From a virus, in IMG/VR virus record IMGVR_UViG_3300045988_176782, positions 96,001 to 160,000 of that record: a DNA stretch of 64,000 nt; one strand, 5' to 3'. The notes under the pieces were generated by a model. That model was not told the DNA's origin and did no database searches. It was given only the letters and a program-made list of their open reading frames with translations. Of the stretch, positions 2,992-64,000 are shown one piece after another (position 1 is the first letter of the stretch; the number at the start of each line of letters is the position of its first letter). The translations under genes were made by a program, and so were the position numbers.

Positions 2992-3339
2992 ATGCTTATT
3001 TCAAAAGCACTTTATGAAAAATTACAAACAATAAATTCTATGTATGGCGCCGCGGCAACAGTGCAATTTTTATTTGCTTTAAACGAATATTATTTTAATA
3101 ACATTAAAACCACAGACAAAGTAATAATTGCATTAGGAATAGAAGAATTTTATGTTTCGCCTCAACAATTTACTAAAACAAACATAACAAATGAACAACT
3201 TTTATCTTTACTTTACGAAGGCAAAACTATGAAAGAAATTATAGAAGAAACAGGCTTGCCGCGCTCTACCGCCTACAGACGAATTAATAAAGTTAAGGAG
3301 ATGTTAAAACTTGACAATACCAATGGTAGTCTTGACTGA
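2992..3339 (+). CDS. HTH DNA-binding protein
   Basis: ORF track; TAGGAGG SD; C-terminal GKTMKEIIEETGLPRSTAYRRINKVK is HTH-like. Confidence 0.7.
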   Translation: MLISKALYEKLQTINSMYGAAATVQFLFALNEYYFNNIKTTDKVIIALGIEEFYVSPQQFTKTNITNEQLLSLLYEGKTMKEIIEETGLPRSTAYRRINKVKEMLKLDNTNGSLD

Positions 3340-3964
3340 TTATTTTTTAGAAAAAATTAATAAAGTAGCAAGTTATTATGGAGCAGAGAAAGCTTTATAT
3401 TACCTTAATGAGCTATATAATTATGCTTACTATGATATTTATCCACAAGATGTTTTTCTAAAAAATTAGTTAAATTTTAGAAAAGATTCTCTAATCATTG
3501 ACTCCTATAAAAAAGATGCTTTTACTAAACCCACCATTCCAACTGGCCGCATATTAGAATATAAAATTAAAGGTCTAACTCCCCAGGAAATTGCAGGTAA
3601 AGTTGGTTTATCATCATCTACTGTGCGTAAGCGGCTGAATGACTTTATGAATGAAAGTGCCATTAATAGAGTTATTATAGAGAAAAAACCCAATCCCATA
3701 GAAGAACCAGTTGAATCATTACCTGATGATTTTGTTTTTCCAGAAAACGAAGACCCGCGAATTACGACTGCGAAAGAAGCACTTTGGCTAAAACAACTAG
3801 GATACCGCTATCTCATTGCAAGTGAAGTAGAAGATTACTATGACCGTGGTTATACACCAATAGAAAATCTTAGAAAGTTTGGCTGGTATTACTTAAAACA
3901 AAATGGCTATGATGTAGATTGGCCAACAGAAAAGGATGATGAGGATTGGGCAAGTTTGACTTAA
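3323..3964 (+). CDS. HTH DNA-binding protein, paralog of 2992..3339 (1 in-frame TAG)
   Basis: ATG 3323; the frame stays open through TAG 3467 into ORF 3623..3964; HTH-like GLTPQEIAGKVGLSSSTVRKRL. Confidence 0.6.
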
Positions 3965-4701
3965 AGTAGATAGAAAAGGATAAAGAGCGCACGCGCCTAA
4001 TCCCGCAAGAAGAAGCATTTCTACATTATTCTACTGATGATTTACTATATGGGCTGCTTGCCTATAAAGCAAATTATGACATTGAAACAAAGACTCTTTT
4101 TCTTAAACAAGAAGACTTACCTGCCATTAAAAAAATGGTTGCAGGTTGGTTAGACTGTACAATTAGAACAATGGGCAATCACTTACACGATTTAATGGAT
4201 AAGGGCTATATAGAATATGACTAGTTAAATAAGAGATATATAATAAAAAACTACCACGAAAAATATTAGTAGGTTAATAATCATATGCTTTTTGTTTTAT
4301 TACAAAATATGCGGCCAAATACAATTAAAATATACAGTTATTTATTAAATAAATATATTTGGAAAAAATCAGAAGGGAAAGTTTTTTATTTTTCTATTAG
4401 TTCCTTATTAAAAGATTTGGGTTATGTAAATATCTATAATCGTCTTGAACGCGAATCAATAAAAGATATATTGTTTTTCTTAAATTTAATGGGCTTTATT
4501 ACAATTTCTCGTGTATATAAAATTACTAACGATGTATATATACCATACTATTCTTTAGATTTTGCTACAATAAATGCGGATGAACTCCAACATAAACATC
4601 TATCAGAAATTGACCCCAATTTGAATTTAGAGCAAAGAGTACGCATCTATGAGCTGCCAGAAGATGTCGCTGTGGTTGATGACGATGGTCTTATTGAATG
4701 A
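3946..4701 (+). CDS. winged-helix-like protein (4 in-frame TAG; start uncertain)
   Basis: Frame of ORF 4285..4701 is open upstream through TAG 3967, 4222, 4267, 4270; candidate starts are TTG 3946 or ATG 4135. Confidence 0.5.
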
Positions 4702-4768
4702 GACTTTGAGATTTTTTCTGTCATTTTTTGAAATTCTAATAATATCGCAACTCGGATTTTGTATATGA

Positions 4769-4869
4769 GAAATTCTGGAAGATAGATAAGAAATCTGAGA
4801 AGCGCCACACTAATGGAAAATGAAACATTAGCGGAAATCTGAGAAGCGCGCTAAGGAAATTCTGGAAGA
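4769..4869. repeat. interleaved short direct repeats
   Basis: GAAATTCTGGAAGAT at 4769 and 4855; GAAATCTGAGAAGCGC at 4790 and 4834; further GAAATTCT copies nearby. Confidence 0.7.
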
Positions 4870-5140
4870 TTAATCGGAAATTCTATCATAAACTCTTAAT
4901 AGAATAAATAGAAGAATTAAGAGAGTATATTTATAATAGTTCTTACGAGACGGCCGCCATTAAAATGGCGCCCGCTTTAAAAATGATGATTGATTGATTG
5001 AAGACACGATAAAACTAAATTTCATAGCTGCGGCCGCAGGAATTTTTCTGCCTTCTCCACCATCCCTATTATAATTCAAATTTGTCCATTTTTAAAATTT
5101 ATATTCCAATCTATTTTTTTCGGGAAAAGGTATCCCTGTA

Positions 5141-6453: not shown

Positions 6454-7035
6454 ATGTTAGATTTAATTACATATGCACTTCTAAAAGCAAAACAAGTTGA
6501 GGCCGCAACAGGCATACAAGGTGCAGAAATAAAGAAAGGAGAACTTATCTTTACTTTGTCTGATGGTTCGATTGTTTCTGCAGGCAAACTTTGGGATGAA
6601 AACTCCTCTCCTATTACCAATGTAAAATTTGAAGATTCTACTCTTATTGTAGAACATCTAAGCGGCGAAAAAGAAACCCTTAATTTACCCCAAAACGAAA
6701 TTAAGGGTGTAGAGTTGTAGGGCACAAATCTTATTTTTACTTTCTTTGATAATACGTAGTTGGTTGCGCCACTTTCTGGAAAACAAATTACCGCCGCAGA
6801 AATTAAAGACAACCACCTAATTTTTACTTTTTCAGATTCTTCAACCTTAGATGCTGGAGAACTTTTAGTTTCTTCTGTGGGTATTGACGATACAAAAATT
6901 TCTCCTTCAACTACCTATAGTAGCGAAAAAATTTAGGATATTATAAATTTTGAACTTATTTGTTGCGGCGACAGTATAGATGTAAATTCTTCTTTGGAAA
7001 ATCTTATTCCTGATGCAACTTCACGTCAATGGTGA
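6454..7035 (+). CDS. structural repeat protein (3 in-frame TAG)
   Basis: ORF 6454..6720 continues in frame through TAG 6718, 6757, 6934 to TGA 7033; internal repeats xLIFTxSDxS..AGxL occur three times. Confidence 0.65.
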
Positions 7036-7038
7036 TTT

Positions 7039-8169
7039 ATGTATTATAAGATAAAAGATGAATTTCTTTCTAACATCGCCGCAGCAATTAGAGAAAAATT
7101 AAACCTGCAAAAATAGCTAGAAATACAAGAATTTTCTCCTCTTATTCATTCTATTGGAGGAGAAACCTTTTTTGAAGTAGAAGGTCAAACTACATTTTTA
7201 GGCTGGGATGGTCTATAGAGGTATCGGCAAAATGCCACTTCTCCTTTCCCTTCTTCTCCCACTCCAAATTTTCTTCTCGTGGAAAAAGAAGTAGGAGATA
7301 ATTTTCTTCGTAGTAAAATCTATACTACAACCTCCGGAAAACACCTACTTTTTATTAAACTTCTCGCCGCCGCAACAATTACACTAAACATTAATGCTTC
7401 TTTTGTTGATTGGGGCGACGGCACACAAAGTACTACTCTATCCCATACCTATTCTACTGCCGGCGCATACACTATAAAATGTGATGGTACAACACTAAAG
7501 GCAAACTTCATTTCTCCTAACAGCATTTTATATGAGGCGCATTTTGCAAAAGGCTTAACCACCATACAACAAAATGCCTTTTCCAATCAAACTTTTCTCC
7601 AAATTCTAACGCTGCCTTCTTCTTGCACCAATATCGCTGCGGAAAATGTATTTAACGGTTGCGTTAGTTTAAATGCGTTAGTGTTTCCAGCTAATTGTTC
7701 TATTACAAAGTTAAATGCTGTAAAAGTTTAGAATATAATTTTGCCTTCTACAATTTCTGAACTACCTTCTTCCTACAACAATAGTAATCCCTCTCTAAAA
7801 CAAATTACTTTGCCTGAAGGTATAAAGGAAATTCCCGCCGCGTCCTTTTTGTATAATTATGGTTTGGAGCAAATTCATTTACCTTCTTCTTTGGTTTCTA
7901 TTGGCTCCAATGCCTTTAAAGGATGCGCGAATTTACAAAAATTGGAAATCCCGCAATCAATTACTACCTTAAGTGTTGATTGTTTTAGGGATTGCACTGG
8001 CTTACTTTCTATTAAATTAAAGTCTCCTACGCCTCCTATTCTCCAAAATGGGCTTGTGTTTGATAAGTCAGCTTGTCCCATTGTTGTGCCTAAAGGGACA
8101 CTTACTACCTACAAAAACGCAACAAATTGGATATTACTCCAAGACCGCTTAAAGGAGGCCGTGCAATGA
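7039..8169 (+). CDS. leucine-rich-repeat (BspA-like) protein (3 in-frame TAG)
   Basis: ATG 7039; TAG 7114, 7216, 7729 join ORFs 7279..7731 and 7741..8169; repeated motif I-P-x-S-[VI]-x-x-I-G-x-x-A-F-x-x-C. Confidence 0.7.
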
Positions 8170-8339
8170 TACAACAAAAAATATATTCAACAATTCCACT
8201 TATTTACGAAACTAAAAGTGACCGTAATATGTGGATTAAAAGCGAACTTTCTGGCGCACTTTATGTTATTGCCTATGACCCTATTCCAAAAAAATATAGC
8301 GAAACGGAGGAACCAATAAATGAGTCAACGAGTGATTGA
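8166..8339 (+). CDS. hypothetical protein
   Basis: ATGA overlap with the preceding stop; ORF track frame 8127..8339. Confidence 0.5.
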   Translation: MIQQKIYSTIPLIYETKSDRNMWIKSELSGALYVIAYDPIPKKYSETEEPINESTSD

Positions 8340-8985
8340 CCTTGCTAAAAAGATTTCTCCTCCTCTCCCTTGGGGTAATTAGGGTGAGGCAGGAGCGACA
8401 GATTTATTCTTAGATATAAGTGAATTTTATATGGCCGATCCGAATGGGAAAGCCATTGTTACTTTTACCCGTCAAGATGGACATACTTACATACACAAAT
8501 TTTAGTTAGAAAATAAAAACCTATTCATAACCTTAACTGCTACCGATACACAATTAGTGGGGAAATGTGAAGTTTAGATTAATTGGCTTTCTAAAGGGAA
8601 CCGATTAACTAAATCTTATAATTATAAAAGTTTTATTCTCCCCGCTGCGTCAGAAAAGCCCTTCCCATTAACAGAAGAAAGTGTTGCTGCTTTAGATAAT
8701 TTGCAATCTTATATTGAAGATGCCAAAAAAATTCTTGAAGAAGCTAAACTTAAAAAACAAATTATCTTCTGTGATGAACTTCCATTGGAAGGTTTGAGTG
8801 AGTTTGTCTATTTACTATCAAAAGATAAAGGATTATATTATTGGTCTGATGGCTGGTATTTGCTTAATCCTAAAAGTTCTGGCGGCGGTTTAGGAGATTA
8901 TGATTTTGTTTTTGGCGGCAATGCTGAAGGTCCCACAAATGAAAGTCAGTGGATTGGAGGTACTGCTAGCCAAGTAGACCCTTAA
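8320..8985 (+). CDS. structural protein (3 in-frame TAG)
   Basis: ATG 8320; TAG 8380, 8503, 8575 lead in frame into ORF 8701..8985. Confidence 0.6.
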
Positions 8986-9005: not shown

Positions 9006-10265
9006 ATGGCAATAAGTCTTAACACCAGAATTTGCCTACGCAATGATACGGCAGCTCGCTGGGTTGAAGTAAACCCTATTCTTAAAAAGGGCGAAATTGG
9101 CGTAGAAAATGATACTGGTAAGTTTAAAATTGGTAATGATGAAAGTAATTGGAACGACTTAGATTATGCCAATAGCGGCTCTGATGTATCTGTTGCCGCG
9201 CACTATGAAGGTGAAGCCGCAGAAGGCGAAACCGATGAAGCTGTTATTGCTCGTGTTATGGGCGCAACTGCCCCTGCAAATGACGACATTTTTGTTGTAA
9301 AACGTGTAATTAACGGCGAAAAGAAATCTTACACTTCTTACGTTTACAATGGCACTGCTTGGGCTGCGATGGATGGCAATTATAATGCTAATAATGTGTA
9401 TTTTGATGCTGATTTTGTCGCAACAGAAAAAGTTGGTACTATTACCATTCCCGCTTCTGGCAGCGCCACTGTAACAGCAGCAGGCAAAAATGTAAAAGAA
9501 GTATTGGCTTCTATTCTTGCGCAAGAAAAGAATCCTACTGTTACCCAACCCTCTGTTTCTGTTAATATAACTAATTCTACCAAAGCATTAGAAGTAGGCT
9601 CTAAAGTAATTCCTACCTATAAAGCTACTTTTAATGCTGGTTCTTATTCTTATGGCCCTGCTACTGGCATTACTGCAAAGACTTGGGAAATTACCAACTC
9701 TGTAACTGATGAAACATTAAATACTGCCGAAGGTTCTTTTGCAGAACTAACTGTGGCAGACAACACCAACTTCTCTATCACTGCTAAAGCAACCTATGAA
9801 GGTGGCGCAGTTCCCAAAACCAATATCGGCAATGAAAAACCCAATTTAGCTATCGCGGCTGGTTCCAAGAGCGCCGTTAGTTCTGCTAAAATTACTGGCT
9901 ATCGTAATTTCTTCTACGGTTTTGTAGCCTCTAGTTCTGCCGATGTCCCTGTTGATAGCGCGCTAGTTCGTAGTTTAACTGCTGGCGGCGCTTATAATGC
10001 AAAAAAATCCTTTACGATTAAAGCTGCAAACACTGCTGGCGCAAAGCGTATTGTTGTTGCGATTCCTGCTAACTCTACTCGTAGCGGCTTAATTTCTGTT
10101 TCTCTTGATAGCACTATGAATCTTGACATTACTGCTGAATATAATCAAATCGCTAATGTTAATGTTGAAGGCGCTAATGGTGCTACCGCAATTCCTTATA
10201 AGGTTTGGGTATATGAACCTGCTGAATTAGGCAGCGACCAAATTCAAACCATTACTTTAGGTTAA
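9006..10265 (+). CDS. tail-fibre-like protein
   Basis: ORF track; N-terminal motif TRIxLRNDT..W..NP.L.KGE.G.E.DTGKFKIGND...WNDL shared with four downstream genes; no TAG. Confidence 0.8.
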   Translation: MAISLNTRICLRNDTAARWVEVNPILKKGEIGVENDTGKFKIGNDESNWNDLDYANSGSDVSVAAHYEGEAAEGETDEAVIARVMGATAPANDDIFVVKRVINGEKKSYTSYVYNGTAWAAMDGNYNANNVYFDADFVATEKVGTITIPASGSATVTAAGKNVKEVLASILAQEKNPTVTQPSVSVNITNSTKALEVGSKVIPTYKATFNAGSYSYGPATGITAKTWEITNSVTDETLNTAEGSFAELTVADNTNFSITAKATYEGGAVPKTNIGNEKPNLAIAAGSKSAVSSAKITGYRNFFYGFVASSSADVPVDSALVRSLTAGGAYNAKKSFTIKAANTAGAKRIVVAIPANSTRSGLISVSLDSTMNLDITAEYNQIANVNVEGANGATAIPYKVWVYEPAELGSDQIQTITLG

Positions 10266-10279
10266 GGAGGTAAGTGAAA

Positions 10280-11881
10280 ATGGCTGAAATTAAAAAGGTA
10301 TTTAATGCGTCTTCCTTACCTATTGCGTTTTCTCGTGGTAATCCTATTCCAATTGACAAGAGTTCTGTATGGTACTCTAAAACGGATATGGAAAATTACG
10401 CTAAAACTGGCGCAACCGCTTATGTTGGTCAAATTTTAGCATTAGTTGATGACGTAAATAACACTTCCACTGCATACATTATCACCGATACTACTGGCAC
10501 TTTAAAGGAAGTAGGCAGTGCAACTATAGGTGATAATAAAACTATTGTATTAAACGAAGGTGCGCTTTCTTTAAAAAACTGGGGCGTTGAATATTACCGT
10601 TGGGTAGATGCAGTAGGAGAAGAAGGGCAAGAAGGCTATGTTGCTGGGCATCATGAAAAGCAAATCGTTGATGAAACTCACCCTTGGATTGCTGGCTTAG
10701 AGCCTAAAGCAATCGCAGGCATTGATGGCACTTTTGAAATTGCTTGGTATCAGCCTTCTACTACAACTGTTGAAGGTTTAAATTCTGCTATTGGTTCTTT
10801 GCAAACTTCTGTAAATGAAATTAATAGTGCATTAGGTAATGCTGAAACTGCAGGCACCATTCGCGGTGATATTAAAGCTAATAATGATGCTTTAACCACT
10901 AAGCTCGCTCTCGCCGGTGGCACTATGACTGGTGATATTATCCTAACCGACGGCGGTAAAGCTATTTCTGATACTGCTGTTGCTGGTTTAATCGCATCTG
11001 CTGGTCATATTAAGCGCACAATTGTAGAAGTTTTACCTGAAGCCTCTACGGCTAATGCCAATACCATTTATATGGTTAAGGATGCTACAGTTACTTCTGG
11101 CGACGCATATAATGATTATATGCTTATTGACGGGGCACTAGTCCAAGTCGGCGGCACAAGCGTTGATTTAAGTGGCTATGCTACTACAGAAGCAGTAAGT
11201 GAAGTTCAAACTGCTTTAAACAACCATAAAGCTGACACAACTCTACACATTACTAATGAGGAACGTTCTGCTTGGAATAATAAGGTTGATAAGGCAGAGG
11301 GAAAATCTCTTGTTGCAGATGAGCAAATCACCAAGTTATTTGGTCTTGCTAACATCAAAACGATTGGGAAGAACCTTTCTCTTTCTGAAGATGGTGTTCT
11401 TGCTGCATTAGCAGAACAATATACTCTTCCTGCTGCAACCGCTAGCGACCTTGGTGGTGTCAAGAAGGGTGATGGCCTTTCTATTACCACTGAAGGTGTT
11501 TTAGCCGTTCAACTTAACACAGAAAAAGCCAACGGTCTAACTGTCAGTGCGGATGGCCTTGAATTAGCTCTAGCTTCCAATACTACCGCGGGTGCAATGA
11601 GTGCTGCCGAACATGTAAAGTTAGCCAATTTGGTAGAAAATGCACAAGCAAATATCATTGAGGGTGCTTTATTAGGTACTGTTGCCGCAACAATTGATGA
11701 GAATAAGAATCTTGTTATTCCTGTTGCAACAGAAACCGCGCTTGGCCTTGTTAAAGGTAGTAAGGAAGATAATGAAATTACAATCCAAGGAAATGGCGAA
11801 ATGGAAGTTAATCGTCTTTCTGTTGGTAAGTTATTTGTTCCAGAAAATGAAGAGTTCATTATTAATGGTGGGAATGCTTAA
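10280..11881 (+). CDS. tail-fibre protein
   Basis: ORF track frame 10274..11881; AAGGAGG SD ~10 nt before ATG 10280; no TAG. Confidence 0.8.
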   Translation: MAEIKKVFNASSLPIAFSRGNPIPIDKSSVWYSKTDMENYAKTGATAYVGQILALVDDVNNTSTAYIITDTTGTLKEVGSATIGDNKTIVLNEGALSLKNWGVEYYRWVDAVGEEGQEGYVAGHHEKQIVDETHPWIAGLEPKAIAGIDGTFEIAWYQPSTTTVEGLNSAIGSLQTSVNEINSALGNAETAGTIRGDIKANNDALTTKLALAGGTMTGDIILTDGGKAISDTAVAGLIASAGHIKRTIVEVLPEASTANANTIYMVKDATVTSGDAYNDYMLIDGALVQVGGTSVDLSGYATTEAVSEVQTALNNHKADTTLHITNEERSAWNNKVDKAEGKSLVADEQITKLFGLANIKTIGKNLSLSEDGVLAALAEQYTLPAATASDLGGVKKGDGLSITTEGVLAVQLNTEKANGLTVSADGLELALASNTTAGAMSAAEHVKLANLVENAQANIIEGALLGTVAATIDENKNLVIPVATETALGLVKGSKEDNEITIQGNGEMEVNRLSVGKLFVPENEEFIINGGNA

Positions 11882-11944
11882 TTATTAAATTAATTATTCT
11901 CTTTTATAAAATACTTGCACATACACAACGAGGTGTAATTATTT

Positions 11945-13801
11945 ATGGCTGAACACATTTTAAATACACGGATTACTCTAAAGTATGATACTTATGAAAA
12001 TTGGCAAAAATCTACTTTAGTTCTGAAAGCTGGCGAAGTTGCAATCTGCGCAGTTCCAAGTGGTGTAACTGTTGAAGGCATCGCTAAGCCACCCGCCGTT
12101 CTTCAAAAAATTGGCGATGGTGTAAATGTCTTCAAAGATTTACCCTGGCTTCAAGCCGTTGCTTCTGATGTTCATACTTGGGCAAAAGCAGCGAGCAAAC
12201 CTACCTATAAAGCAGATGAAATTACTGGCTTAGACACTTACATTACTGGTCAGATTCAAGATACTGATACTCAATATACAATTGTTAAAGGCGACAACGA
12301 TTATACATATAAGTTAATGTCTCGTGCTAAGGGCGCAGAGAATTACTCTACTGAGGTCGCTACTTTATCCATTCCCGACCCCAGCGCGGATATTAATGTT
12401 CTTAAGGCCCTAGTTGGTGATACCGCAGTCGCTACTCAAATTAGCGAGGCTATTGCTGCTTTAAAACTAAGCGATACTTATGAGCAAAAGGGTGCTGCCG
12501 CAGCTGTAAAGACTGCTTTATTAGGCGACGCCGCGGAATCTTATAATACTTTAGGTAAGTTAGAAGATGCTGTAATTGCTGCGAAGGCCTCTGCCGATGA
12601 AAAAACTACTATGGCTGCCGTAGAAGCCAAAGACTATGCCACTAAGACAGAAGCCCAAGGCTACGCTACTGCTGTAGTTGGCGCGGCTGCAGATACCGTA
12701 GATAAGGACACTGTAAAGGGTGCCAAAGCTTATGCTAAGGGCCTTAATGATGCCACCAACACTCGCGTAGAAGCTCTAGAAACTGCCATTGGCGAAGGCG
12801 GCTCTGTTGATTCTCAAATTGATGCTAAGATTGCAGAACTGGATGCGGCAGAGGTTGCTGTTGGCACAGGTGAAATTATTGAGAAGATTTCTCAAACCGA
12901 CGGTAAGATTTCTGTAAGTAAGCGCGCTTTGGCTGCAGGCGATATTCCCACAATTGAACAGAATCAAGTGAATGGCCTTGCTGGCGCTCTGGCCGCAAAA
13001 CAAGATACCTTGGCCTTCCAAAGCGACAACTATGATAAAGAAACAAATAAGGCCATCACTAAGAGCGACTTAGACACAGCTATTGCGGGCTTGACAGGCG
13101 TAACTCACTTCAAGGGCGTAGTAGAGAATCTACCTGTTTCTGCTGAAAACGGCGATATTTACATCAAGACTGATGGCACTGAGCATATTTATGTAAAGCC
13201 TGATGCCGCGACAGAAGGCCGTTTTGAAGAACTGGGCGATCAAAATTCCCATATCAAGCACGGCACTGTTGTAGATAGCGATATTGCCGCTAATGCTGCT
13301 ATTGCTCAATCCAAGATTGCCGGTCTAACCGATGCCTTAGCCGCAAAGGCTAACACTGCTGACCTTGGTACCATGGCCGTAGAAACCGCCACAAATTATA
13401 TCAAGAAAACCGAAGCTTCTGGTTATGATGATATTCTAACCACTGCTGTTGCTGGCACAACTTACGAAACCAAGAAAGATGCTACAGCTAAGCTAACCGA
13501 AGCTAAGGGCTATGTTGATACTGAGCTTGGTAAGCTAGACCTTACAGAAGTTACTGCTGGCCAAGGCACAATCATTGGAGCGATTTCTCAAACCGATGGT
13601 CTTATTAGTGTATCTACTCGTGAATTAACTGCTGATGACATCCCTGTTTTAGCACAAAGCAAAATCACTGGTTTAGAGGCCGCTTTAAATGCGAAGGCAA
13701 ATGACGCTGATTTAGCAGCAATTGCAAAGAGCGGCTCTACTGATGATTTGATTCAAGGAACAGATACCTTAGTCTTTAATTGCGGCGGTGCGAATGCGTA
13801 A
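11945..13801 (+). CDS. tail-fibre protein (Ala/Thr-rich repetitive shaft)
   Basis: ORF track; N-terminal TRITLKYDTYENW...KIGDG motif; no TAG. Confidence 0.8.
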   Translation: MAEHILNTRITLKYDTYENWQKSTLVLKAGEVAICAVPSGVTVEGIAKPPAVLQKIGDGVNVFKDLPWLQAVASDVHTWAKAASKPTYKADEITGLDTYITGQIQDTDTQYTIVKGDNDYTYKLMSRAKGAENYSTEVATLSIPDPSADINVLKALVGDTAVATQISEAIAALKLSDTYEQKGAAAAVKTALLGDAAESYNTLGKLEDAVIAAKASADEKTTMAAVEAKDYATKTEAQGYATAVVGAAADTVDKDTVKGAKAYAKGLNDATNTRVEALETAIGEGGSVDSQIDAKIAELDAAEVAVGTGEIIEKISQTDGKISVSKRALAAGDIPTIEQNQVNGLAGALAAKQDTLAFQSDNYDKETNKAITKSDLDTAIAGLTGVTHFKGVVENLPVSAENGDIYIKTDGTEHIYVKPDAATEGRFEELGDQNSHIKHGTVVDSDIAANAAIAQSKIAGLTDALAAKANTADLGTMAVETATNYIKKTEASGYDDILTTAVAGTTYETKKDATAKLTEAKGYVDTELGKLDLTEVTAGQGTIIGAISQTDGLISVSTRELTADDIPVLAQSKITGLEAALNAKANDADLAAIAKSGSTDDLIQGTDTLVFNCGGANA

Positions 13802-14292: not shown

Positions 14293-15414
14293 ATGGCAGA
14301 AAAAATATTGCAAACAAGAATTTAGTTAAAATATGATACTGAAACCAACTGGAATAAAGCTACAAATTTTATTCCTAAAGCTGGCGAAATTATTTTATAT
14401 TCTGATGGCGGCGGTACTGGTATTCCTAAAATGAAAGTTGGGGATGGAAGTACAAAAGTTGGAAATTTAAAATTTCTTAAAGGAGATGGAGAATATCTAA
14501 CCTCTGTCCCTGCTGGGACTTGGACTTGGACTAATGGTACATCTGCAGGGCCTACTGCAAAATTAACTATTGACTCTAATGCAACAACTATCGGCGCAAT
14601 TCCAGCTGCTTCTTAGAGCCAAAGTGGTATAATTACAACAACTTCTCAAGTCATTTCTGGTAATAAAGCTATGTTAGGTAATTTTTCTGTTGGTAGCAGA
14701 ACTGATGCAAATTTATATACTTTAAATATTAGTCGTAAAAGTGCTTCTGATGCATCTTCTATGCTGTTTTAGGGCTATATTAATGAAACCGCAAACAATT
14801 TTCAAATGTGCATTTATCGTTATGGAATAGATAATACCGAAGCTTGGCGTTTAATTCTAAATTTTTTAAATGGAACAATTACAAGTGATTCTACTACTCC
14901 AATTACTCTTGGTTCTGCGGACATTCCTTGGACTGCTGTTTATGCTAAGAAATTTGTTGGTGGTGAAGCCACAACTTCCGTAGCAGGTTTGATGAGTGCA
15001 GAAGATAAAACTGCCCTTGATAGTTTAAGCGCTGTTTTTGGTGGCAGTTCTTCTAGTTCAGCTGGCACAAAAGGTCTTGTTCCTGCTCCTGCAAGTGGGC
15101 AACAAAATTATGTTTTACGTGGCAATGGCAGTTGGTCTCAATCTGTTGTTTCTACTACTGCGACACTAACTGCCAATGGCTGGTCTTCTTCTACACCACA
15201 CACTCAAATCATTAGTGTTAGCGGTATTACTACGAATTCTAAGGTAGTAATTGATGTTAATTTAAGCGGACAAAGTTCTGACAATATTTCTAGTATTCTT
15301 GAAAATTGGAGTAATGTTAATGATATTCAAACTAATAGTGGCGCATTAACAGCTTATTGCTATGGTGATGTTCCTACAGTTAATTTGCCAATTAATATTA
15401 TTGATATTAAGTGA
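14293..15414 (+). CDS. tail-fibre protein (3 in-frame TAG)
   Basis: ATG 14293 (MAEKILQTRI-TAG-LKYDT); TAG 14323, 14614, 14770 join ORFs 14431..14616 and 14806..15414. Confidence 0.7.
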
Positions 15415-15423
15415 GGTTAAGTT

Positions 15424-20681: not shown

Positions 20682-20730
20682 ATTTGCCTATAAACAAAAA
20701 TTATTGTAAAATAATTTTGGAGGATGAAAT

Positions 20731-45032: not shown

Positions 45033-45040
45033 TGCCTCTT

Positions 45041-58664: not shown

Positions 58665-59969
58665 ATGAAAAAGTCTTATTTAGATTTAATTGCAACTTTA
58701 TATTCAGAACCTGATTTACGAAGTTGTAGAAACATTACCTTATAGGTTTGCGATGATTGCTGTTTAAAATGTTCATATTGCTATCAAATTCATAAAAGCC
58801 ACAATTATATGACAAAAGAGACTGCAAAAGCCATTATTGATTTACTATTTAGAATGTATGATGAAGATAAGCCAGACGCATTTATCAATCATACAACTCA
58901 TGGTATAATTCTTGATTTTATCGGTGGCGAGCCTCTAATGAACGTTGAAATTATGGAATTTGCTACTGAATACTTTATTGACCAATGTTTGCAAAAAAAT
59001 CACGAGTGGCTTTATAATTTTCGCACAAGTTTTGCAACAAATGGTATTCTTTATTTTGAACCAAAAGTATAGGCATATTTACAAAAATTTCACAATTTTA
59101 TTTCTATGACCGTTAGTATTGATGGCCCAAAAGAAATTCATGATATTTGCCGTCTTGACCGTGATGGTAATGGTAGTTTTGAACGAGCAAGTACCGCGGC
59201 GCACCATTATTGGGAATATTATGGAAAAGATGTCGGGGGACGAGATGAAACTAAAGTTACCATTGCTCCAGACAATTTATCTCAATTAAATAAAATTGTA
59301 GATTATTTCTTAAATGAAGGCGTTACAGTGATTAATGCCAATCCAGTTTATGAAGTAGAATGGACAGTAGAATAGGCAAAAATATATTATAATGAATTAA
59401 AAAAATTAGCAAATAAATTGTTATTAAATTTAGAAATTAAATGTAGTATTTTTGATAGCCATTAGAACGTCCCCTTGCCTATTAGTGATAATACGAACTG
59501 GTGCGGCGGTGATGGACATATGTTAGCTTTTGACCCGCACGGAAATGCTTATCCTTGTTTGAGATATATGGAAAGCTCTTTAGGTGGAGAAGTTGAGCCT
59601 TTAATTATTGGTGATACTAATGGTATTTATAATACGCCAGAAAGTCAAGAAATTAGGTGTAAACTTTGTACATTAACTCGTAGTAATTAGTCTACGGAAG
59701 AATGTACGCATTGTTCAATCGCCGCGGGCTGCTCTTGGTGCAGTGCTTGGAATTATCAGCAATTTAAAAAGATCGGTAAGCGTAGCACGAATATTTGTTG
59801 GATGCACCGAGCCGCAGCATTGGCCAATGTCTATTATTGGAATCTTAAATACCGTTTAGAAGAAAATGAAAAAAGATTCCCAATTTATCTTGAACAAAAA
59901 TATGCTTTGTAGATAATACCCTCTGAAGAATATGATTTGTTGCTTTCACTTTCTCAATGGGGAGAGTGA
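58665..59969 (+). CDS. radical SAM/SPASM enzyme (6 in-frame TAG)
   Basis: ATG 58665; one frame through TAG 58743, 59070, 59373, 59463, 59688, 59910 to TGA 59967, joining ORFs 58809.., 59106.., 59475..; CCLKCSYC (CxxxCxxC); C-terminal CTHCSIAAGCSWC. Confidence 0.75.
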
Positions 59970-59974
59970 TATTT

Positions 59975-60517
59975 ATGAGCTGGCTAAAAGGAGATAAAAT
60001 TACAGCAGAGGATTTCATTGCTATTAAAGAAAAAGTTAAAAACGAATTAGCTCGGCGAAATGCAGAAGGAAGTGTAGCAAACTATGCAACGAGCTATACT
60101 GATATGCCTGTATAGAAAGGGAAAATAAAAGTTAGCCATATTACAGAAATTGTTGAACCATTGAGTCATATTAATAATGTAGATTATGATTTAAATAAAC
60201 CAATTACAATAAAATCTTTAACTACAATTCAAACAATGTTAAATAGTTTAACCACAGCAGAAAAGGCTGCATCAACATTAGAAGCAACCGGGTGTAAAGC
60301 TTCCTGCACTGGTTTATGTTATACATCTTGTTCAGAAACGTGTCGTTCTTGTGGAGATAGTTGCAGTCAAAATTGTGATACTGGATGCAATTGGACTTGT
60401 AAAGGGTCATGCCGCAATACTTGTTCTGGACGCTGCAAAGGTAGCTGTGGAACTACTTGCCAATTGGGCTGTTCTAACAATTGCAAAGGAAGCAGTGTAG
60501 GTGGCTGTTCTGCATAA
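59975..60517 (+). CDS. protein with C-terminal CxxxC-repeat domain (1 in-frame TAG)
   Basis: ATG 59975, TAG 60113, continues into ORF 60161..60517; the last ~75 aa have Cys at nearly every 4th residue (CKASCTGLCYTSCSETCRSCGDSCSQNCDTGCNWTCKGSC...). Confidence 0.7.
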
Positions 60518-61275: not shown

Positions 61276-61304
61276 TTGACTTTTCTAAAATTTTCTCCTA
61301 TAAT
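61276..61304 (+). promoter_or_regulatory. sigma70/SigA-type promoter
   Basis: TTGACT-17-TATAAT. Confidence 0.65.
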
Positions 61305-61365
61305 ATGTCTATAAAAGATAAGCAATAGCTCTATTGCTTCCAAAATGAAAAGGAGAAAAGAAAAC

Positions 61366-62853
61366 ATGAATAATCTACTAAATTCCCTAAAGCAAGAAAC
61401 CAACTATACCTACACCACCAATGGCGCAGTAGCGCACAAATCTACCCTAAACAAAGTCCTTGATCTATTTGCCCTTGGCGGCGCTTATCGTGTAAAGAGT
61501 GACAATGACGTTATTCTTCTCTTTAAAGAAGCATATGACGAGAATCCTGAACTCGCGCTAAAGTGCTTGTTCTTTATTCGTGATATTCGCGGCAATGGTT
61601 ATGGTGAACGTCGCTTTTTCCGTGTATGCCTTCATTGGCTTGCTACACAACATCCCGAAGTTGTGAAGCGAAATATTAACTATATTCCATTTGTTGGCCG
61701 TTATGACGACCTCTATGCTATAATGGATACTCCTTGTATGCTGGATGCTTTTACTTTCTTTGATCGCCAACTGCGACTTGATATGGAATGCCAAACTCCC
61801 AGTTTATGTGCAAAGTGGATTTGGTCAATGAATTGTTCTTCTGCCGAACATAAGAAATATGGTAAGGCACTTGCAGATTATATGCGTTTAACTCCTAAGC
61901 AATATCGTAAGATGCTTACTGGTTTGCGCGCGAAGATTAAGATTGTTGAAACTCTAATGTCTCAGAATCGTTGGGATGAAATTCAATTTGATAAATTACC
62001 TTCTAAGGCCGGCTTTAAGTATCGTAATGCTTTTGCAAAGAACGATTACACTAAAGAACGCTATGAAGCCTTTATGAAGTCTAAGACCACTAAGGTAAAT
62101 GCAAAAACCTTATTCCCCTATGAAGTCGTAAAGCAAGCTATTAACGCTGATTGGCAAGATGAACTAACCTGCAATACTCTTGAGAAGTATTGGGAGAATC
62201 TTGCTGACTATTTCAATAATGCTACTTTTAATGCTCTGGCCATTGTTGATACTTCTGGTTCTATGCGTAGTGGTGCTGCTTCCGCCGCGCCTATTGATGT
62301 GGCAATTTCTCTTGGTATGTATTGTGCGGAAAAAGCTAATGGTCCTTTTAAGAATCATTATATCAGTTTTTCCTCTAAGCCTCAATTGATTGAAATTAAG
62401 GGTGTCAATTTTGTTGACAAGGTTCAGCGTATTTACCAAACTAATCTTTGTGAAAATACTAACATTGAAGCTACTTTTGATCTTCTTTTAAATAATATTG
62501 TGAAGTATAATTTAAATGAAGAAGATATTCCAGAGTATCTTGTAATTATTTCCGATATGCAGTGGGACGAAGGGGTTTGTGAAATTCGCGGGCGATACTA
62601 TATGCCTGCGGCGAATCCTCAAACTTTAATTGACCAAATTAAAGAAAAGTGGAAAAGTGTCGGAATAAGGATGCCTAAATTAATTTTCTGGAATGTCAAC
62701 GCAAAACATCCTGTCATCCCTGCTCTTGATGGAAATTACAGTTATATCAGCGGCTTTAGCCCCGCGATTTTTGAACAAATTATGACCGGTAAAACCGGCG
62801 TAGAACTAATGCTTGAAGCACTAAGTTCTGAACGTTATAAAGACATTCATTAA
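61366..62853 (+). CDS. helical N-domain plus vWA protein (DUF2828-like; TROVE/Ro60-like layout?)
   Basis: ORF track frame 61345..; AAGGAG SD before ATG 61366; N-terminus TTNGAVAHKSTLNKVLDLFALGG; MIDAS-like VDTSGSM. Confidence 0.7.
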   Translation: MNNLLNSLKQETNYTYTTNGAVAHKSTLNKVLDLFALGGAYRVKSDNDVILLFKEAYDENPELALKCLFFIRDIRGNGYGERRFFRVCLHWLATQHPEVVKRNINYIPFVGRYDDLYAIMDTPCMLDAFTFFDRQLRLDMECQTPSLCAKWIWSMNCSSAEHKKYGKALADYMRLTPKQYRKMLTGLRAKIKIVETLMSQNRWDEIQFDKLPSKAGFKYRNAFAKNDYTKERYEAFMKSKTTKVNAKTLFPYEVVKQAINADWQDELTCNTLEKYWENLADYFNNATFNALAIVDTSGSMRSGAASAAPIDVAISLGMYCAEKANGPFKNHYISFSSKPQLIEIKGVNFVDKVQRIYQTNLCENTNIEATFDLLLNNIVKYNLNEEDIPEYLVIISDMQWDEGVCEIRGRYYMPAANPQTLIDQIKEKWKSVGIRMPKLIFWNVNAKHPVIPALDGNYSYISGFSPAIFEQIMTGKTGVELMLEALSSERYKDIH

Positions 62854-62879
62854 GAGAGCTTAGGCTCTCTTATTTTTTT
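62852..62879 (+). terminator. intrinsic terminator
   Basis: AAGAGAGC-TTAG-GCTCTCTT then T-run. Confidence 0.85.
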
Positions 62880-62894
62880 AGGTGGTGAAACTTT

Positions 62895-64000
62895 ATGAGT
62901 GGAGGATTTTCTGGCGTTGGCGGCTATGCTGTTATTCTAACTCCAGAAGGCGCATCGCTATATGGCGGCGGAAATGCAAGTTTTGAAGCACTTGTCACTG
63001 CTGCAACAGGCCAAATAGATATTGAGGCAACAACATAGGAAATTCTTGCTATTTTATATTAGCAATATGAAGAACAAACAATAATAGAAAGGAATATACG
63101 GGCAGCTTATGGCAATGAAACTATTGAAAATATTATAAAATCCTTACGCGGAGAAACTTCTAAAGTAATGAGCGGCACACCAGAAATGATACAAAATCTT
63201 AAGCAAAATTTGGCCGACTGGCAGAACAAAGAAAAGAGTCGTAAAGAAACAATCGCCCAAATTCGTGGAGATTCTGAACATTATTATCAAGTTTATAATA
63301 CTTTAGTAGACGGATTAGTTGCCTTAGCTAATCAATTAACTAATATGGATGAAAAAGCATTACGAACTGGTCCTGGTATCATTGAAACATTAATTCATAA
63401 ATGGGAAAATTCTTCCAGTCAATTAGAGCAAGAAGCCGCGAAAATGGCGCAATCTTTTTCCAAATTAGATTTAGATAATGAATCATTTATTAAAGATATG
63501 AATAGTACCTTTGACAAAATTAGAGAGACAATTAACAAAGAAGACATGGCCTATTCTTATGACCCTACTTCTAATACCACTGAACTTAAAAATCCAGAAT
63601 TAACCGCGGCTATTTAGGAATTACTTGCCTTTCAAGAAAAAATCCGCAGTGATATAGATAAAAAAAGTAAACGCAGTAAAAAGAAAAAACAAAGACTTCT
63701 TGCTATGTGGAATAATATTAAATTTGCCAATTGGAATGCAAGAACCAGTAAACTTGGTCAGGCATTAAATCAAAAAGGTAAAAACGACCCAATGATAATT
63801 TTAAATAGTTTAAGGCAAAAAGTCTATGATGTGGCTAAATAGCAATTAGAGGAAAACACTGGACGAAAAGCCACAGATAAAGAGCAACAAAAACTTCGTT
63901 CTTCAATTACAGAAATTCAAACTAAAGCTGTCAATGAGCTAAGTGAACAAACTAAAGACTATGCAGTACGGCAACTTATTTCACTTGTATTTGGCGACCA
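62895..64000 (+). CDS. large coiled-coil protein, partial (at least 4 in-frame TAG)
   Basis: ATG 62895 after GGTGGTGA; the frame stays open through TAG 63036, 63060, 63615, 63840 to the window edge and includes ORF 63168..63617. Confidence 0.6.

What the first reader, a model, noticed from the sequence alone, without database searches (positions are those of the whole stretch)
3323..64000. TAG is read as a sense codon throughout the window, most likely as Gln
At least 50 in-frame TAG codons link adjacent same-frame ORF-track fragments into full-length genes on both strands. Examples are 14323/14614/14770, 18546/18933/20091, 44541/44664/44847/44856/44901 and 58743/59070/59373/59463/59688/59910. 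Minus-strand examples are 42646..42644, 42505..42503 and 42204..42202. Every merged gene ends in TAA or TGA. TAG falls on conserved Gln positions. In the SpoIID-like gene, EACKS-TAG-AVASRTFAL matches the recalled consensus ALKAQAVAARTYA, and GHGV-TAG-LS-TAG-IGA matches GHGxGxSQxGA. In the PG-binding domain, AIENI-TAG-K matches the consensus FQ. In a fibre N-terminus, RI-TAG-LKYDT matches RIQLRxDT-type motifs. Recoding affects early-looking HTH genes as well as late genes. In contrast, 4.8 kb of presumably abundant fibre genes (9006-13801) contain no TAG.
Basis: partly seen in the sequence, partly recalled or inferred. Interest (0 to 1): 0.7.

Follow-up and report, generated by a model that had tools for sequence, protein, structure and literature searches.

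The report
Phage reads TAG as glutamine
This stretch of a large gut-type bacteriophage genome uses the stop codon TAG as a glutamine codon in its fibre, lysis and some other genes and carries its own TAG-reading tRNA; this kind of recoding is already well documented in gut phages, so the finding is correct but not new.

Summary
The observation and the interpretation both hold. I count 52 in-frame TAG codons in 18 credible genes, on both strands. No gene ends in TAG (53 TAA, 27 TGA). Pfam domains and full-length homologs run straight across the TAGs. Of 73 inter-TAG segments, 68 score best as coding in the merged frame, and many have no start codon of their own.

TAG means Gln. In 13 TAG columns of three families, Gln scores +23 bits and the next residue, Glu, scores -13. 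At the DNA level, 17 of 23 variable TAG sites carry CAA or CAG in related phages.

The likely decoder is a phage tRNA with anticodon CUA at 46742-46831. It lacks an encoded CCA. A minimal HDV-like ("theta") ribozyme candidate follows it directly at 46832-46885.

Recoding is mosaic. Nucleotide-metabolism and RNA-repair blocks (22.2-42.1 kb, 49.0-55.1 kb) are TAG-free. So are fibre genes with raised G+C, and one of these (16550-17593) was clearly acquired from a standard-code, high-G+C phage.

This is genetic code 15, already described for gut phages, and public pipelines already translate the relatives that way. The less ordinary parts are side findings. The suppressor belongs to a widespread tRNA family with a long extra arm and a Gln-like acceptor end. 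It recurs next to a GIY-YIG homing endonuclease gene.

The parts
3311..3964 (+). HTH (sigma-70 region 4 / wHTH-like) protein gene, 1 in-frame TAG (3467)
   Evidence: ORF map. Pfam HTH_24 and Sigma70_r4_2 map to residues 82-115, downstream of the TAG. Both segments score as coding in frame, and the next in-frame start is 51 codons after the TAG.
3946..4701 (+). Unknown protein gene, 4 in-frame TAGs (3967, 4222, 4267, 4270)
   Evidence: In a relative, three of these sites are TAG and one is CAA.
6454..8985 (+). Three structural or fibre-region genes (6454-7035, 7039-8169, 8320-8985) with 3 TAGs each
   Evidence: The TAGs are conserved in two relatives, and 6718 is CAA in one of them.
9006..13801 (+). 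Three TAG-free tail-fibre genes (9006-10265, 10274-11881, 11945-13801), G+C 41-45%
   Evidence: PHROG tail-fibre N-terminal hits. 0 TAG among 38 Gln codons, P about 1e-4. G+C is raised relative to the neighbours.
14293..16539 (+). Fibre-like genes 14293-15414 (TAG 14323, 14614, 14770) and 15424-16539 (TAG 15697, 16474)
   Evidence: Site 16474 is CAA, CAG or GGN in relatives.
16550..17593 (+). TAG-free gene of foreign origin (G+C 54.8%, GC3 51%)
   Evidence: Relatives at 64-84% amino-acid identity sit on roughly 40-kb viral contigs of 49-60% G+C that are fully coding under the standard code.
18486..22188 (+). Two large fibre genes with a shared C-terminal domain: 18486-20681 (TAG 18546, 18933, 20091) and 20731-22188 (TAG 20773)
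22190..42107 (.). TAG-free block. It includes a radical SAM gene, a phosphoesterase, adenylosuccinate synthetase, nucleoside deoxyribosyltransferase, DUF5662 and others.
   Evidence: 0 TAG among 208 Gln codons, P about 2e-22.
42121..42709 (-). Two overlapping minus-strand genes: 42272-42709 (TAG 42646, 42505, 42328) and 42121-42339 (TAG 42204)
   Evidence: Both are conserved in relatives. Site 42505 is TAG or CAG, and site 42204 is TAG or AAC.
43666..45840 (+). Lysis cassette: PG_binding_1 protein (TAG 44263, 44320), SpoIID-like protein 44400-45032 (5 TAGs), and NlpC/P60+SH3 protein 45070-45840 (TAG 45334, 45349)
   Evidence: Pfam domains span the TAGs.
46742..46831 (+). Amber suppressor tRNA, anticodon CUA, 90 nt. 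It has a 22-nt extra arm, U1-A72, G2.U71, G3-C70 and A73, and no encoded CCA.
   Evidence: ARAGORN. Rfam tRNA 58.9 bits. Diverged syntenic alleles in relatives show 8-12 compensatory stem changes. A family of 11 distinct members gives a consensus cloverleaf with 14 of 21 pairs covarying.
46832..46885 (+). Candidate minimal HDV-like (theta) ribozyme, with G1 directly after tRNA base 73. P1 GGTATC/GATACT (G1.U), P2 GGTCT/AGGCC, P3 GCC/GGC, L3 TTCTCGT, P1.1 GA, J4/2 CGAA.
   Evidence: My own descriptor gives 1 hit in the window, 0 in 10 shuffles and 0 in 1.16 Mb of related loci. Of 44 IMG/VR matches to the core, 26 fit the full fold with covarying P1 and P2. The Rfam HDV models do not hit it.
46970..47815 (+). 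GIY-YIG homing endonuclease gene, 5 in-frame TAGs. It is part of a window-specific insertion at 46777-47824.
   Evidence: Pfam GIY-YIG and I-HmuI NUMOD-like. Absent from 93-96% identical relatives. Homologs lie just downstream of the same tRNA family on unrelated contigs.
49028..55139 (+). TAG-free block: YqeY-domain protein (49028-49498), RNA ligase (49515-50843), Form_Nir_trans-like protein, ICEA-like protein and N6/N4 DNA methylase
   Evidence: Pfam. 0 TAG among 47 Gln codons, P about 1e-5. The YqeY and RNA ligase genes keep their position near the suppressor tRNA in relatives.
58665..60517 (+). Radical SAM/SPASM-type enzyme gene (6 TAGs) and an adjacent Cys-rich protein gene 59957-60517 (TAG 60113)
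   Evidence: Pfam. PDB 5wgg at E 7e-17. All six TAG sites are CAA or CAG in one or both relatives.
62895..64000 (+). Unknown protein gene that runs off the window, 4 TAGs (63036, 63060, 63615, 63840)
   Evidence: Site 63060 is CAA or CAG in relatives.

Best explanation
The window comes from a phage of roughly 165 kb that uses genetic code 15 in part of its genes: TAG encodes glutamine, and only TAA and TGA terminate.

Shown here:
- TAG is in frame in 18 genes.
- It sits on Gln positions.
- It interchanges with CAA and CAG in relatives.
- It is never needed as a terminator.
- The phage encodes a structurally sound, conserved tRNA with anticodon CUA.

Inferred steps:
- The tRNA (46742-46831) is transcribed without CCA.
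- Its 3' end is released by self-cleavage of the adjoining minimal HDV-like ribozyme (46832-46885).
- The host CCA-adding enzyme completes it.
- A host enzyme loads it with Gln. The tRNA family's acceptor end fits this: pair 1:72 is weak or mismatched, G2 and G3-C70 are present, and base 73 is usually G. Together with C34 and U35 these are the features E. coli GlnRS is known to read.

Genes without TAG can be translated in the unmodified host. These are the nucleotide-metabolism genes and the RNA/tRNA-repair genes, including YqeY and RNA ligase. Genes with TAG need the suppressor. These are the fibre, lysis, homing-endonuclease and radical SAM genes. As proposed by Borges et al., the code difference would therefore delay or gate their expression.

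Some TAG-free fibre genes are simply recent imports from standard-code phages.
For: TAG is sense:
- Pfam domains span TAGs.
- Database homologs match the merged genes at full length (210 aa for 210; 419-441 for 434).
- Coding potential supports the merged frame in 68 of 73 segments, and several segments have no start codon.
- Terminators are 53 TAA, 27 TGA and 0 TAG.
- The TAGs are conserved across independent assemblies.

TAG is Gln:
- PDB SpoIID alignments and the PG_binding_1 FQ motif.
- 13-column log-odds give Gln +23.3 bits against -12.9 for the runner-up.
- 17 of 23 variable sites show CAA or CAG, and 13 sites do so in the reverse direction. P is about 1e-19.

Decoder:
- tRNA(CUA) found by ARAGORN and Rfam.
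- The syntenic alleles are diverged but keep the cloverleaf through compensatory changes.
- In the 11-member family, pair 1:72 is never G-C and base 73 is G in 9 of 11.

Ribozyme.

Mosaic.

Published precedent:
- Code 15 phages: bioRxiv 10.1101/2021.08.26.457843.
- Proteomic proof that TAG is read as Q in crAss-like phages: PMC9523058.
- Theta ribozymes next to CCA-less suppressor tRNAs: PMC10879173.
- phAss-1: PMC10607447.
Against: - No protein-level evidence exists for this phage.
- The tRNA has a 22-nt extra arm, a feature of Ser, Leu and Tyr tRNAs rather than Gln tRNAs. The window's copy also has A73 rather than G73.
- Three of the 13 profile columns clearly prefer another residue: Gly at 44847, Thr at 45334 and His/Asp at 59373.
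- Fibre genes at 9006-13801 and 16550-17593 are late-type yet TAG-free, and an HTH gene has a TAG. An early/late split is therefore not clean.
- The Rfam HDV models do not detect the ribozyme, and I wrote its descriptor after seeing the candidate.
- The host, and therefore whether it has GlnRS, is unknown.
- Only 64 kb of about 165 kb was examined, so other suppressors, release factors or synthetases may exist elsewhere in the genome.
Confidence: 0.9

Rival explanations
1. TAG is sense but is decoded as Ser, Leu or Tyr, because the suppressor tRNA has the long extra arm typical of those tRNAs. SerRS and LeuRS ignore the anticodon, and tRNA-Tyr needs one base change to read TAG.
For: - The extra arm is 22 nt.
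- The window copy has A73, as Leu and Tyr tRNAs do.
- The anticodon loop CUCUAAA is the same as in the classic Tyr and Ser amber suppressors (own knowledge).
- One close homolog has Tyr at one TAG column.
Against: - Profile columns give Ser -36, Leu -33 and Tyr -43 bits against Gln +23.
- Relatives replace TAG by CAA or CAG, not by TCN, TTR, CTN or TAY.
- The D arm is class-I-like (4-bp stem, 8-nt loop), unlike the window's own Ser and Leu tRNAs.
- Pair 1:72 is never G-C in the family.
Confidence: 0.04
2. TAG is still a stop. The fragments are independent short genes, or the genes are decaying pseudogenes of a defective prophage.
For: Under table 11 the fragments are listed as separate ORFs.
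Against: - Many fragments lack any in-frame start, yet coding signal continues in the same frame.
- Single Pfam domains cross TAGs.
- Only TAG, never TAA or TGA, interrupts 5412 codons.
- The sites are conserved or swapped with Gln codons in relatives.
- A cognate suppressor tRNA is present.
Confidence: 0.01
3. The TAGs are sequencing or assembly errors.
For: None found.
Against: The same TAG positions recur in independent assemblies from ENA, Logan and IMG/VR samples. 21 sites are TAG in every aligned relative.
Confidence: 0.005
4. Dual meaning. TAG is read as Gln only partially or only late, and acts as a real terminator early in infection. Recoded genes would then yield truncated products until the suppressor accumulates. 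This is the regulatory version of the main model, not a true alternative.
For: - The distribution is mosaic, with blocks fully TAG-free.
- The model is proposed in bioRxiv 10.1101/2021.08.26.457843.
- The host is presumably standard-code.
Against: - No gene in the window needs TAG as its terminator.
- The only TAG aligned with a TAA in a relative (5884) lies in an ORF that does not look coding.
- Timing cannot be read from sequence.
Confidence: 0.4

Closest known systems
Genetic code 15 (TAG to Gln) in gut bacteriophages: crAss-like, Lak, Jade, Sapphire, Garnet and Amethyst clades (Borges et al., bioRxiv 10.1101/2021.08.26.457843), with proteomic validation (Peters et al., PMC9523058)
   Same: - In-frame TAG sits at Gln positions.
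- A phage-encoded tRNA(CUA) is present.
- Recoding is concentrated in structural and lysis genes, with other modules left standard-code compatible.
- Low G+C and large genome: relatives are 165-168 kb, within the size range given for Jade and Sapphire.
- No synthetase was seen in the window.
   Different: - Clade membership was not tested, because no terminase lies in the window.
- Some late-type fibre genes are TAG-free, while an HTH gene and a homing endonuclease gene are recoded.
- The suppressor has a long extra arm.
phAss-1 / 'Phassvirus' TAG-recoded phages of presumed Clostridia hosts (PMC10607447)
   Same: A gut phage predicted to infect Bacillota, with TAG read as Gln in many genes, tRNA-Sup-CTA genes and no dedicated synthetase.
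   Different: - Genome size differs (136 kb).
- No nucleotide match to GenBank phages was found for this window.
- The phAss-1 suppressors were typed as Gln isotype by tRNAscan-SE, which I could not run here.
Theta ribozymes: minimal HDV-like ribozymes at the 3' end of phage tRNAs, one fifth of them suppressor tRNAs (Kienbeck et al., PMC10879173)
   Same: - The nested P1/P1.1/P2/P3 fold has G1.U and a J4/2 cytosine.
- The cleavage site is at the tRNA 3' end.
- The associated tRNA lacks CCA.
- An RNA ligase gene lies nearby.
- The phage is of code 15 type.
   Different: - Identified with my own descriptor, not the authors'.
- No cleavage assay was done.
- Most sequence relatives found in IMG/VR are not next to a detectable tRNA.
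- Whether the window's RNA ligase is of the DRB0094 family was not tested.
E. coli amber suppressors charged by GlnRS: supE tRNA-Gln(CUA), mischarging mutants of su+3 tRNA-Tyr, and tRNA-fMet(CUA) (own knowledge of the classical literature)
   Same: A CUA anticodon is combined with a weak or broken 1:72 pair and usually G73. In E. coli, this combination directs glutaminylation of otherwise unrelated tRNA bodies, including a long-arm tRNA (su+3).
   Different: - Those are laboratory mutants in E. coli.
- Here the host is unknown and may make Gln-tRNA by the GluRS/GatCAB route.
- No charging data exist.
Free-standing GIY-YIG homing endonuclease in a phage tRNA gene region (T4 SegB; own knowledge)
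   Same: A GIY-YIG gene lies next to a tRNA gene, it is present or absent among close relatives, and homology breaks inside the tRNA gene.
   Different: The target site and activity are unknown. Here the partner is specifically the suppressor tRNA, and the pairing recurs on unrelated contigs.

Membership tests
Genetic code 15 (TAG=Gln) phage | In-frame TAG inside conserved protein-coding genes, with homology continuing across the TAG | tested here: met
   Pfam SpoIID, NlpC/P60, GIY-YIG, Radical_SAM and PG_binding_1 hits span TAGs. Homologs match at full length. Coding potential supports the merged frame.
Genetic code 15 (TAG=Gln) phage | TAG columns are enriched for Gln in homologs, and TAG interchanges with CAA/CAG in relatives | tested here: met
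   Gln +23.3 bits over 13 columns. 17 of 23 variable sites show CAA or CAG. P is about 1e-19.
Genetic code 15 (TAG=Gln) phage | TAG is not used as a terminator; TAA and TGA are retained | tested here: met
   53 TAA, 27 TGA and 0 TAG among 80 genes. The single TAG/TAA correspondence (5884) lies in a non-credible ORF.
Genetic code 15 (TAG=Gln) phage | Phage-encoded suppressor tRNA with anticodon CUA (present in about 40% of such phages) | tested here: met
   46742-46831. Syntenic alleles occur in relatives.
Genetic code 15 (TAG=Gln) phage | Gln found at TAG positions in the protein (mass spectrometry) | not testable with these tools
   No proteomic data are available.
Genetic code 15 (TAG=Gln) phage | Recoding concentrated in structural and lysis genes, with other modules standard-code compatible | tested here: inconclusive
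   The lysis cassette and many fibre genes are recoded, and the metabolic and RNA-repair blocks are TAG-free. However, four fibre-region genes are TAG-free, and HTH, HEG and radical SAM genes are recoded.
Theta (minimal HDV-like) ribozyme, tRNA-associated | Nested double-pseudoknot topology: P1 with G1.U, P1.1, P2, P3, and a catalytic C at the start of J4/2 | tested here: met
   The descriptor hits only at 46832-46885, with 0 hits in shuffles and 0 in 1.16 Mb of loci. P1 and P2 covary in 11 sequence relatives.
Theta (minimal HDV-like) ribozyme, tRNA-associated | Cleavage site within 5 nt of a tRNA 3' end, and a tRNA without encoded CCA | tested here: met
   G1 is at 46832 and the tRNA discriminator base is at 46831. 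The next bases are GGT, not CCA.
Theta (minimal HDV-like) ribozyme, tRNA-associated | Match to a curated HDV-like covariance model | tested here: not met
   No HDV-family hit in Rfam 15, even at E up to 10, on 46550-48150. Minimal variants may not be modelled there.
Theta (minimal HDV-like) ribozyme, tRNA-associated | Self-scission in vitro | not testable with these tools
   An experiment is needed.
Bacterial tRNA-Gln (isotype) | U1-A72, G2-C71, G3-C70 and G73 in the acceptor end | tested here: inconclusive
   The window copy has U1-A72, G2.U71, G3-C70 and A73. In the family, 1:72 is UA, AU, GU or a mismatch and never GC, and base 73 is G in 9 of 11.
Bacterial tRNA-Gln (isotype) | Short (4-5 nt) variable loop; class I tRNA | tested here: not met
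   The extra arm is 22 nt in the window copy and 21-26 nt in all family members.
Bacterial tRNA-Gln (isotype) | Highest score with an isotype-specific covariance model (tRNAscan-SE) | not testable with these tools
   No isotype models are available. Pairwise identity to reference tRNAs is uninformative.
Class II tRNA (Ser/Leu/Tyr) | Long extra arm together with a 3-bp D stem, a large D loop and G1-C72 | tested here: not met
   The extra arm is present, but the D stem has 4 bp with an 8-nt loop and 1:72 is U-A. The window's own tRNA-Leu(CAA) and tRNA-Ser(GCT) provide the contrast.

The most novel reading that the evidence does not exclude
The suppressor may belong to a tRNA class that I could not find described. 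It is an amber suppressor with a class-I D arm, a 21-26-nt extra arm, a 1:72 pair that is never G-C, and usually G73. It is spread over many unrelated viral contigs, often as a cassette with a GIY-YIG homing endonuclease. In this window it also carries a 3' self-cleaving ribozyme, and in close relatives it carries a group I intron in the anticodon loop.

If so, the ability to read TAG as Gln would travel between phages as a selfish mobile module. The extra arm would be a functional element. It might block mischarging, or it might serve as a handle for a phage factor such as the conserved neighbouring YqeY (GatB-tail-like) protein.
Probability: 0.3. Interest if true: 0.6.

Novelty: new member of a known kind. 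Interest (0 to 1): 0.35.

Why it matters
For annotation, the window must be translated with table 15. Table 11 shatters 18 genes, including the whole lysis cassette.

Biologically it adds one more lineage to the known TAG-to-Gln phages. This one is large and probably infects Bacillota.

Three details sharpen open questions about how phages impose a code change on a standard-code host:
- The decoder is a long-arm tRNA whose acceptor end looks built for glutaminylation.
- It appears to be matured by its own ribozyme.
- It is physically linked to a homing endonuclease (or, in relatives, a group I intron), which suggests the code-change device itself is mobile.

The TAG-free, high-G+C fibre gene shows that recoded phages still import genes from standard-code phages. 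The TAG content of a gene can therefore reflect its history as well as its expression time.

Tried and rejected
- Raw ORF coverage as a test of the code. Rejected because treating TAA as sense gives even higher coverage.
- Close database homologs as evidence for Gln. Rejected as circular. They are code-15 translations, since their genes do not translate to the listed protein under table 11. I used only homologs of 60% identity or less, PDB chains and DNA-level codons.
- GenBank phage collection. No nucleotide match. Only distant protein hits of the DUF2828 gene to Bacillus Tsamsa-like phages.
- Host identification through genome contigs, using the tRNA 3' half and the SpoIID protein. Nothing found.
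- TAG as a genuine terminator. The one case where a relative has TAA at the aligned codon (5884) lies in an ORF with no coding signal, in a repeat-rich non-coding stretch.
- Ancestry of the suppressor tRNA.
- YqeY as a general partner of this tRNA family. It is syntenic only within this phage clade and was not seen on the short unrelated contigs. It stays speculative.
- Rfam search for an HDV-type ribozyme. No hit. The fold was supported instead by a descriptor and by covariation.
- PHROG annotation of most recoded genes. Uninformative.

Full report
**What is there.** The window has 35.7% G+C. It is mostly plus-strand coding and looks like phage DNA. It holds tail-fibre genes, a lysis cassette, a homing endonuclease gene and an array of about 15 tRNA genes. 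Related contigs in IMG/VR are 165,650 and 168,232 bp long.

I built an ORF map that treats only TAA and TGA as stops. After removing ORFs that overlap RNA genes or show no coding signal, 18 genes (5412 codons) contain 52 in-frame TAGs. One correction is needed. TAG 42204 is not in the same gene as 42646 and 42505. It belongs to a separate overlapping ORF, 42121-42339, which is conserved in relatives.

**Is TAG really read through?** Four independent lines say yes.
- Single Pfam domains cross TAGs: SpoIID across two, NlpC/P60 across two, and GIY-YIG, Radical_SAM and PG_binding_1 as well.
- Database homologs match the merged proteins end to end.
- I trained a codon-usage score on 29 TAG-free genes. 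It picks the merged frame as the best of three in 68 of 73 inter-TAG segments. Many segments have no in-frame ATG, GTG or TTG, or have one only dozens of codons downstream. The fragments therefore cannot be independent genes.
- None of 80 credible genes ends in TAG: 53 end in TAA and 27 in TGA.

Only TAG interrupts the genes, never TAA or TGA. The same TAGs recur in independent assemblies from other samples. Pseudogenes and assembly errors are thus excluded. Raw ORF coverage is not a valid test in this A+T-rich sequence, because treating TAA as sense raises it even more.

**Which amino acid?** The nearest database homologs show Q at the TAG positions. Those entries are themselves code-15 translations, since their genes do not translate to the listed protein under table 11. 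I set them aside.

Independent evidence comes from several sources.
- In the three solved SpoIID structures, TAG 44541 and TAG 44856 align with Gln.
- In PDB PG_binding_1 domains, TAG 44320 aligns with the Q of the FQ motif.
- Among homologs of 60% identity or less, the SpoIID columns are Gln in 81/82 and 79/79 sequences.
- In the same set, three radical SAM columns are Gln in 69/93, 121/142 and 95/131.
- Summed over 13 columns in three families, the log-odds are Gln +23.3 bits, Glu -12.9, Leu -32.9, Ser -36.4 and Tyr -42.6.
- At the DNA level, 44 window TAG sites could be aligned to related phage loci. 21 are TAG in every relative. Of the 23 that vary, 17 show CAA or CAG, and each other codon appears at a single site.
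- In the reverse direction, the window has CAA or CAG at 13 sites where a relative has TAG.
- All six TAGs of the radical SAM gene are CAA or CAG in one or both of two relatives.
- With Gln at about 4% of codons, 17 of 23 has a binomial P near 1e-19.

Not every TAG sits on an ancestral Gln. TAG 44847 replaces a conserved Gly, TAG 45334 a Thr, and TAG 59373 a His/Asp. TAG accounts for 21% of Gln-type codons in the recoded genes.

**The decoder.** A 90-nt tRNA with anticodon CUA lies at 46742-46831, between the lysis cassette and a GIY-YIG endonuclease gene. ARAGORN's label "Pyl" only reflects the anticodon.

The tRNA is unusual. It has a 22-nt extra arm with a 6-bp stem. Its D arm is class-I-like, with a 4-bp stem and an 8-nt loop. 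The acceptor end has U1-A72, G2.U71, G3-C70 and A73, and no CCA is encoded.

Relatives carry a CUA tRNA at the same position, but the sequences are so diverged that blastn finds nothing. The forms are:
- a 97-nt form with U1xU72, G73 and CCA (L006);
- a G+C-rich 86-93-nt form (L009, L045, L049);
- a form split by a group I intron in the anticodon loop, in the closest relatives (L001 exons 14013-14046 and 14300-14356; Rfam Intron_gpI 45.9 bits).

Between these alleles, 8-12 of 21 stem pairs differ by compensatory double changes. The gene is therefore under selection as a tRNA.

A scan of IMG/VR for the window's anticodon arm found ten further distinct CUA tRNAs on unrelated viral contigs. All have a 21-26-nt extra arm. 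RNAalifold returns a cloverleaf with 14 of 21 covarying pairs. Pair 1:72 is UA, AU, GU or a mismatch and never G-C. Base 73 is G in 9 of 11.

From established E. coli work (own knowledge), three features are what GlnRS reads: a weak or broken 1:72 pair, G73, and C34-U35. These are enough to turn unrelated CUA tRNAs into Gln acceptors. Examples are the su+3 tRNA-Tyr mischarging mutants and tRNA-fMet(CUA). This fits the Gln assignment. It remains an inference, because the host and its Gln-tRNA pathway are unknown.

**Maturation.** The 54 nt directly after the tRNA's base 73 (46832-46885) thread onto the minimal HDV-like fold:
- P1 GGUAUC/GAUACU with the G1.U wobble
- J1/2 AAAU
- P2 GGUCU/AGGCC
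- P3 GCC/GGC
- L3 UUCUCGU
- P1.1 GA
- J4/2 CGAA

A generic descriptor of that topology hits only this site in the window. It gives no hits in ten shuffles or in 1.16 Mb of related loci. A scan of IMG/VR for the P3/L3 core returned 44 matches. Of these, 26 satisfy the whole fold, with P1 pairs 2-5 and all of P2 covarying.

This matches the "theta ribozymes" that Kienbeck et al. found at the 3' ends of CCA-less phage tRNAs. A fifth of those tRNAs were amber suppressors, and the phages were enriched in RNA ligase genes (PMC10879173). An RNA ligase gene lies 2.6 kb downstream here.

Three caveats apply. I wrote the descriptor after seeing the candidate. The Rfam HDV models do not hit it. Most sequence relatives are not next to a detectable tRNA.

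**Mosaic distribution.** Three blocks have no TAG:
- 22190-42107, with 208 Gln codons (P about 2e-22 under the 21% share). It holds a radical SAM gene, a phosphoesterase, adenylosuccinate synthetase, nucleoside deoxyribosyltransferase and others.
- 49028-55139, with 47 Gln codons (P about 1e-5). It holds the YqeY-domain protein, RNA ligase and methylase genes.
- the fibre genes 9006-13801, with 38 Gln codons (P about 1e-4).

The first two blocks fit the published idea that genes needed before the suppressor acts stay standard-code compatible (bioRxiv 10.1101/2021.08.26.457843). The fibre genes do not fit that idea.

Gene 16550-17593 has 54.8% G+C. Its relatives (64-84% amino-acid identity) sit on roughly 40-kb contigs of 49-60% G+C that are fully coding under the standard code. 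It is a recent import. Genes 9006-13801 have 41-45% G+C against 35-37% for their TAG-containing neighbours.

**Mobile context.** Homology to the 93-96% identical relatives breaks at 46776/46777, inside the anticodon loop. That is exactly where their intron sits. Homology resumes at 47825. The window-specific insert thus carries the tRNA 3' half, the ribozyme and the GIY-YIG gene, which itself has five TAGs. Homologs of that endonuclease lie 0.1-1.3 kb downstream, on the same strand, of long-arm CUA tRNAs on at least four unrelated contig groups. The suppressor therefore seems to travel with a homing endonuclease.

**Comparison and verdict.** This is genetic code 15 as described for gut phages (Borges et al.; Peters et al., PMC9523058; phAss-1, PMC10607447). 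Public pipelines already translate the relatives that way. The long-arm suppressor family, its ribozyme and its link to a homing endonuclease are the parts that might repay further work. I found no paper describing the extra arm, which is not proof that none exists.

Noticed in passing
window 48109-48684 (+) and 47840-47876 (+): A full-length ROOL RNA (295.8 bits; gathering score 99.1) is preceded by an abiF RNA motif (49.9 bits). Both lie between the suppressor tRNA/HEG and the YqeY gene. Both are conserved at the same place in relatives L001, L009 and L043.
   Followed up: partly
L001 14013-14356 (also L074 7483-7826): In the closest relatives, the suppressor tRNA(CUA) gene is split by a 253-nt group I intron (RF00028, 45.9 bits, E 1e-10) between CUCU and AAA of the anticodon loop. 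The window's allele has no intron, and its homology to those relatives breaks at exactly that point.
   Followed up: yes
L118, L124/L131/L136, L130/L134, L133 (IMG/VR contigs) and window 46742-47815: Long-extra-arm CUA tRNAs recur on unrelated viral contigs. A GIY-YIG endonuclease homologous to the window's (38-46% identity) lies 0.1-1.3 kb downstream on the same strand. This looks like a mobile suppressor-tRNA cassette.
   Followed up: partly
L124, L130, L133: about 10-70 nt downstream of the CUA tRNA: A conserved element (GGGAAGC...GAGAYAAGGA..CCTA.CATCC.GCC) lies between the tRNA and the endonuclease gene. It is not the HDV-like fold and Rfam does not recognise it.
   Followed up: no
window 16550-17593: A gene with 54.8% G+C (GC3 51%) sits in a 35.7% G+C genome. 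Its close relatives lie on high-G+C, standard-code viral contigs of about 40 kb. This is clear horizontal acquisition of a fibre or receptor-binding-region gene.
   Followed up: yes
window 49028-49498 and 49515-50843: A YqeY-domain protein (the fold of the tRNA-binding tail of GatB; Pfam E 9e-25) and an RNA ligase (PF09414) keep their position near the suppressor tRNA across relatives down to about 45-50% identity. A role in charging or repair of the suppressor is conceivable but untested.
   Followed up: partly
window 55903-56018 (+) and 56992-57068 (+): Two odd tRNA-like genes sit in the array. One has a 43-nt insertion in the anticodon loop (read as Phe-AAA with an 'intron') and no CCA. The other is a 77-nt non-class-II tRNA read as Leu(AAG), with a mismatch in the acceptor stem. 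The first recurs in relatives L008 and L009.
   Followed up: no
window 58665-60517: A radical SAM/SPASM-type enzyme (best solved relative PDB 5wgg, E 7e-17) lies next to a 186-aa protein whose C-terminal half is a dense run of CxxxC repeats. This looks like a maturase-substrate pair.
   Followed up: no
window 61345-62853; L133 5545-5654: The DUF2828+DUF7788 protein is about 40% identical to proteins of roughly 165-kb Bacillus phages (Tsamsa, PBC2, Thrax). Homologs also lie near long-arm suppressor tRNAs in L118 and L128. L133 shows a sub-threshold Y RNA-like (YrlA) hit plus cow-rumen-3 and cow-rumen-4 RNAs in its tRNA region.
   Followed up: no
window 2021-2127 and 4701-5876: Operator-like palindromes TATCAC(N)GTGATA are repeated at 2021-2064 and 2084-2127. 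A 134-nt direct repeat (5112-5245 / 5364-5497, 72% identical) lies in a stretch with no convincing gene.
   Followed up: no
L045/L046 (relative with 70% identical SpoIID gene): This relative's SpoIID gene has no TAG at all (real CAA/CAG codons), yet the phage still carries a CUA tRNA at the syntenic site. The extent of recoding therefore varies gene by gene among relatives.
   Followed up: partly
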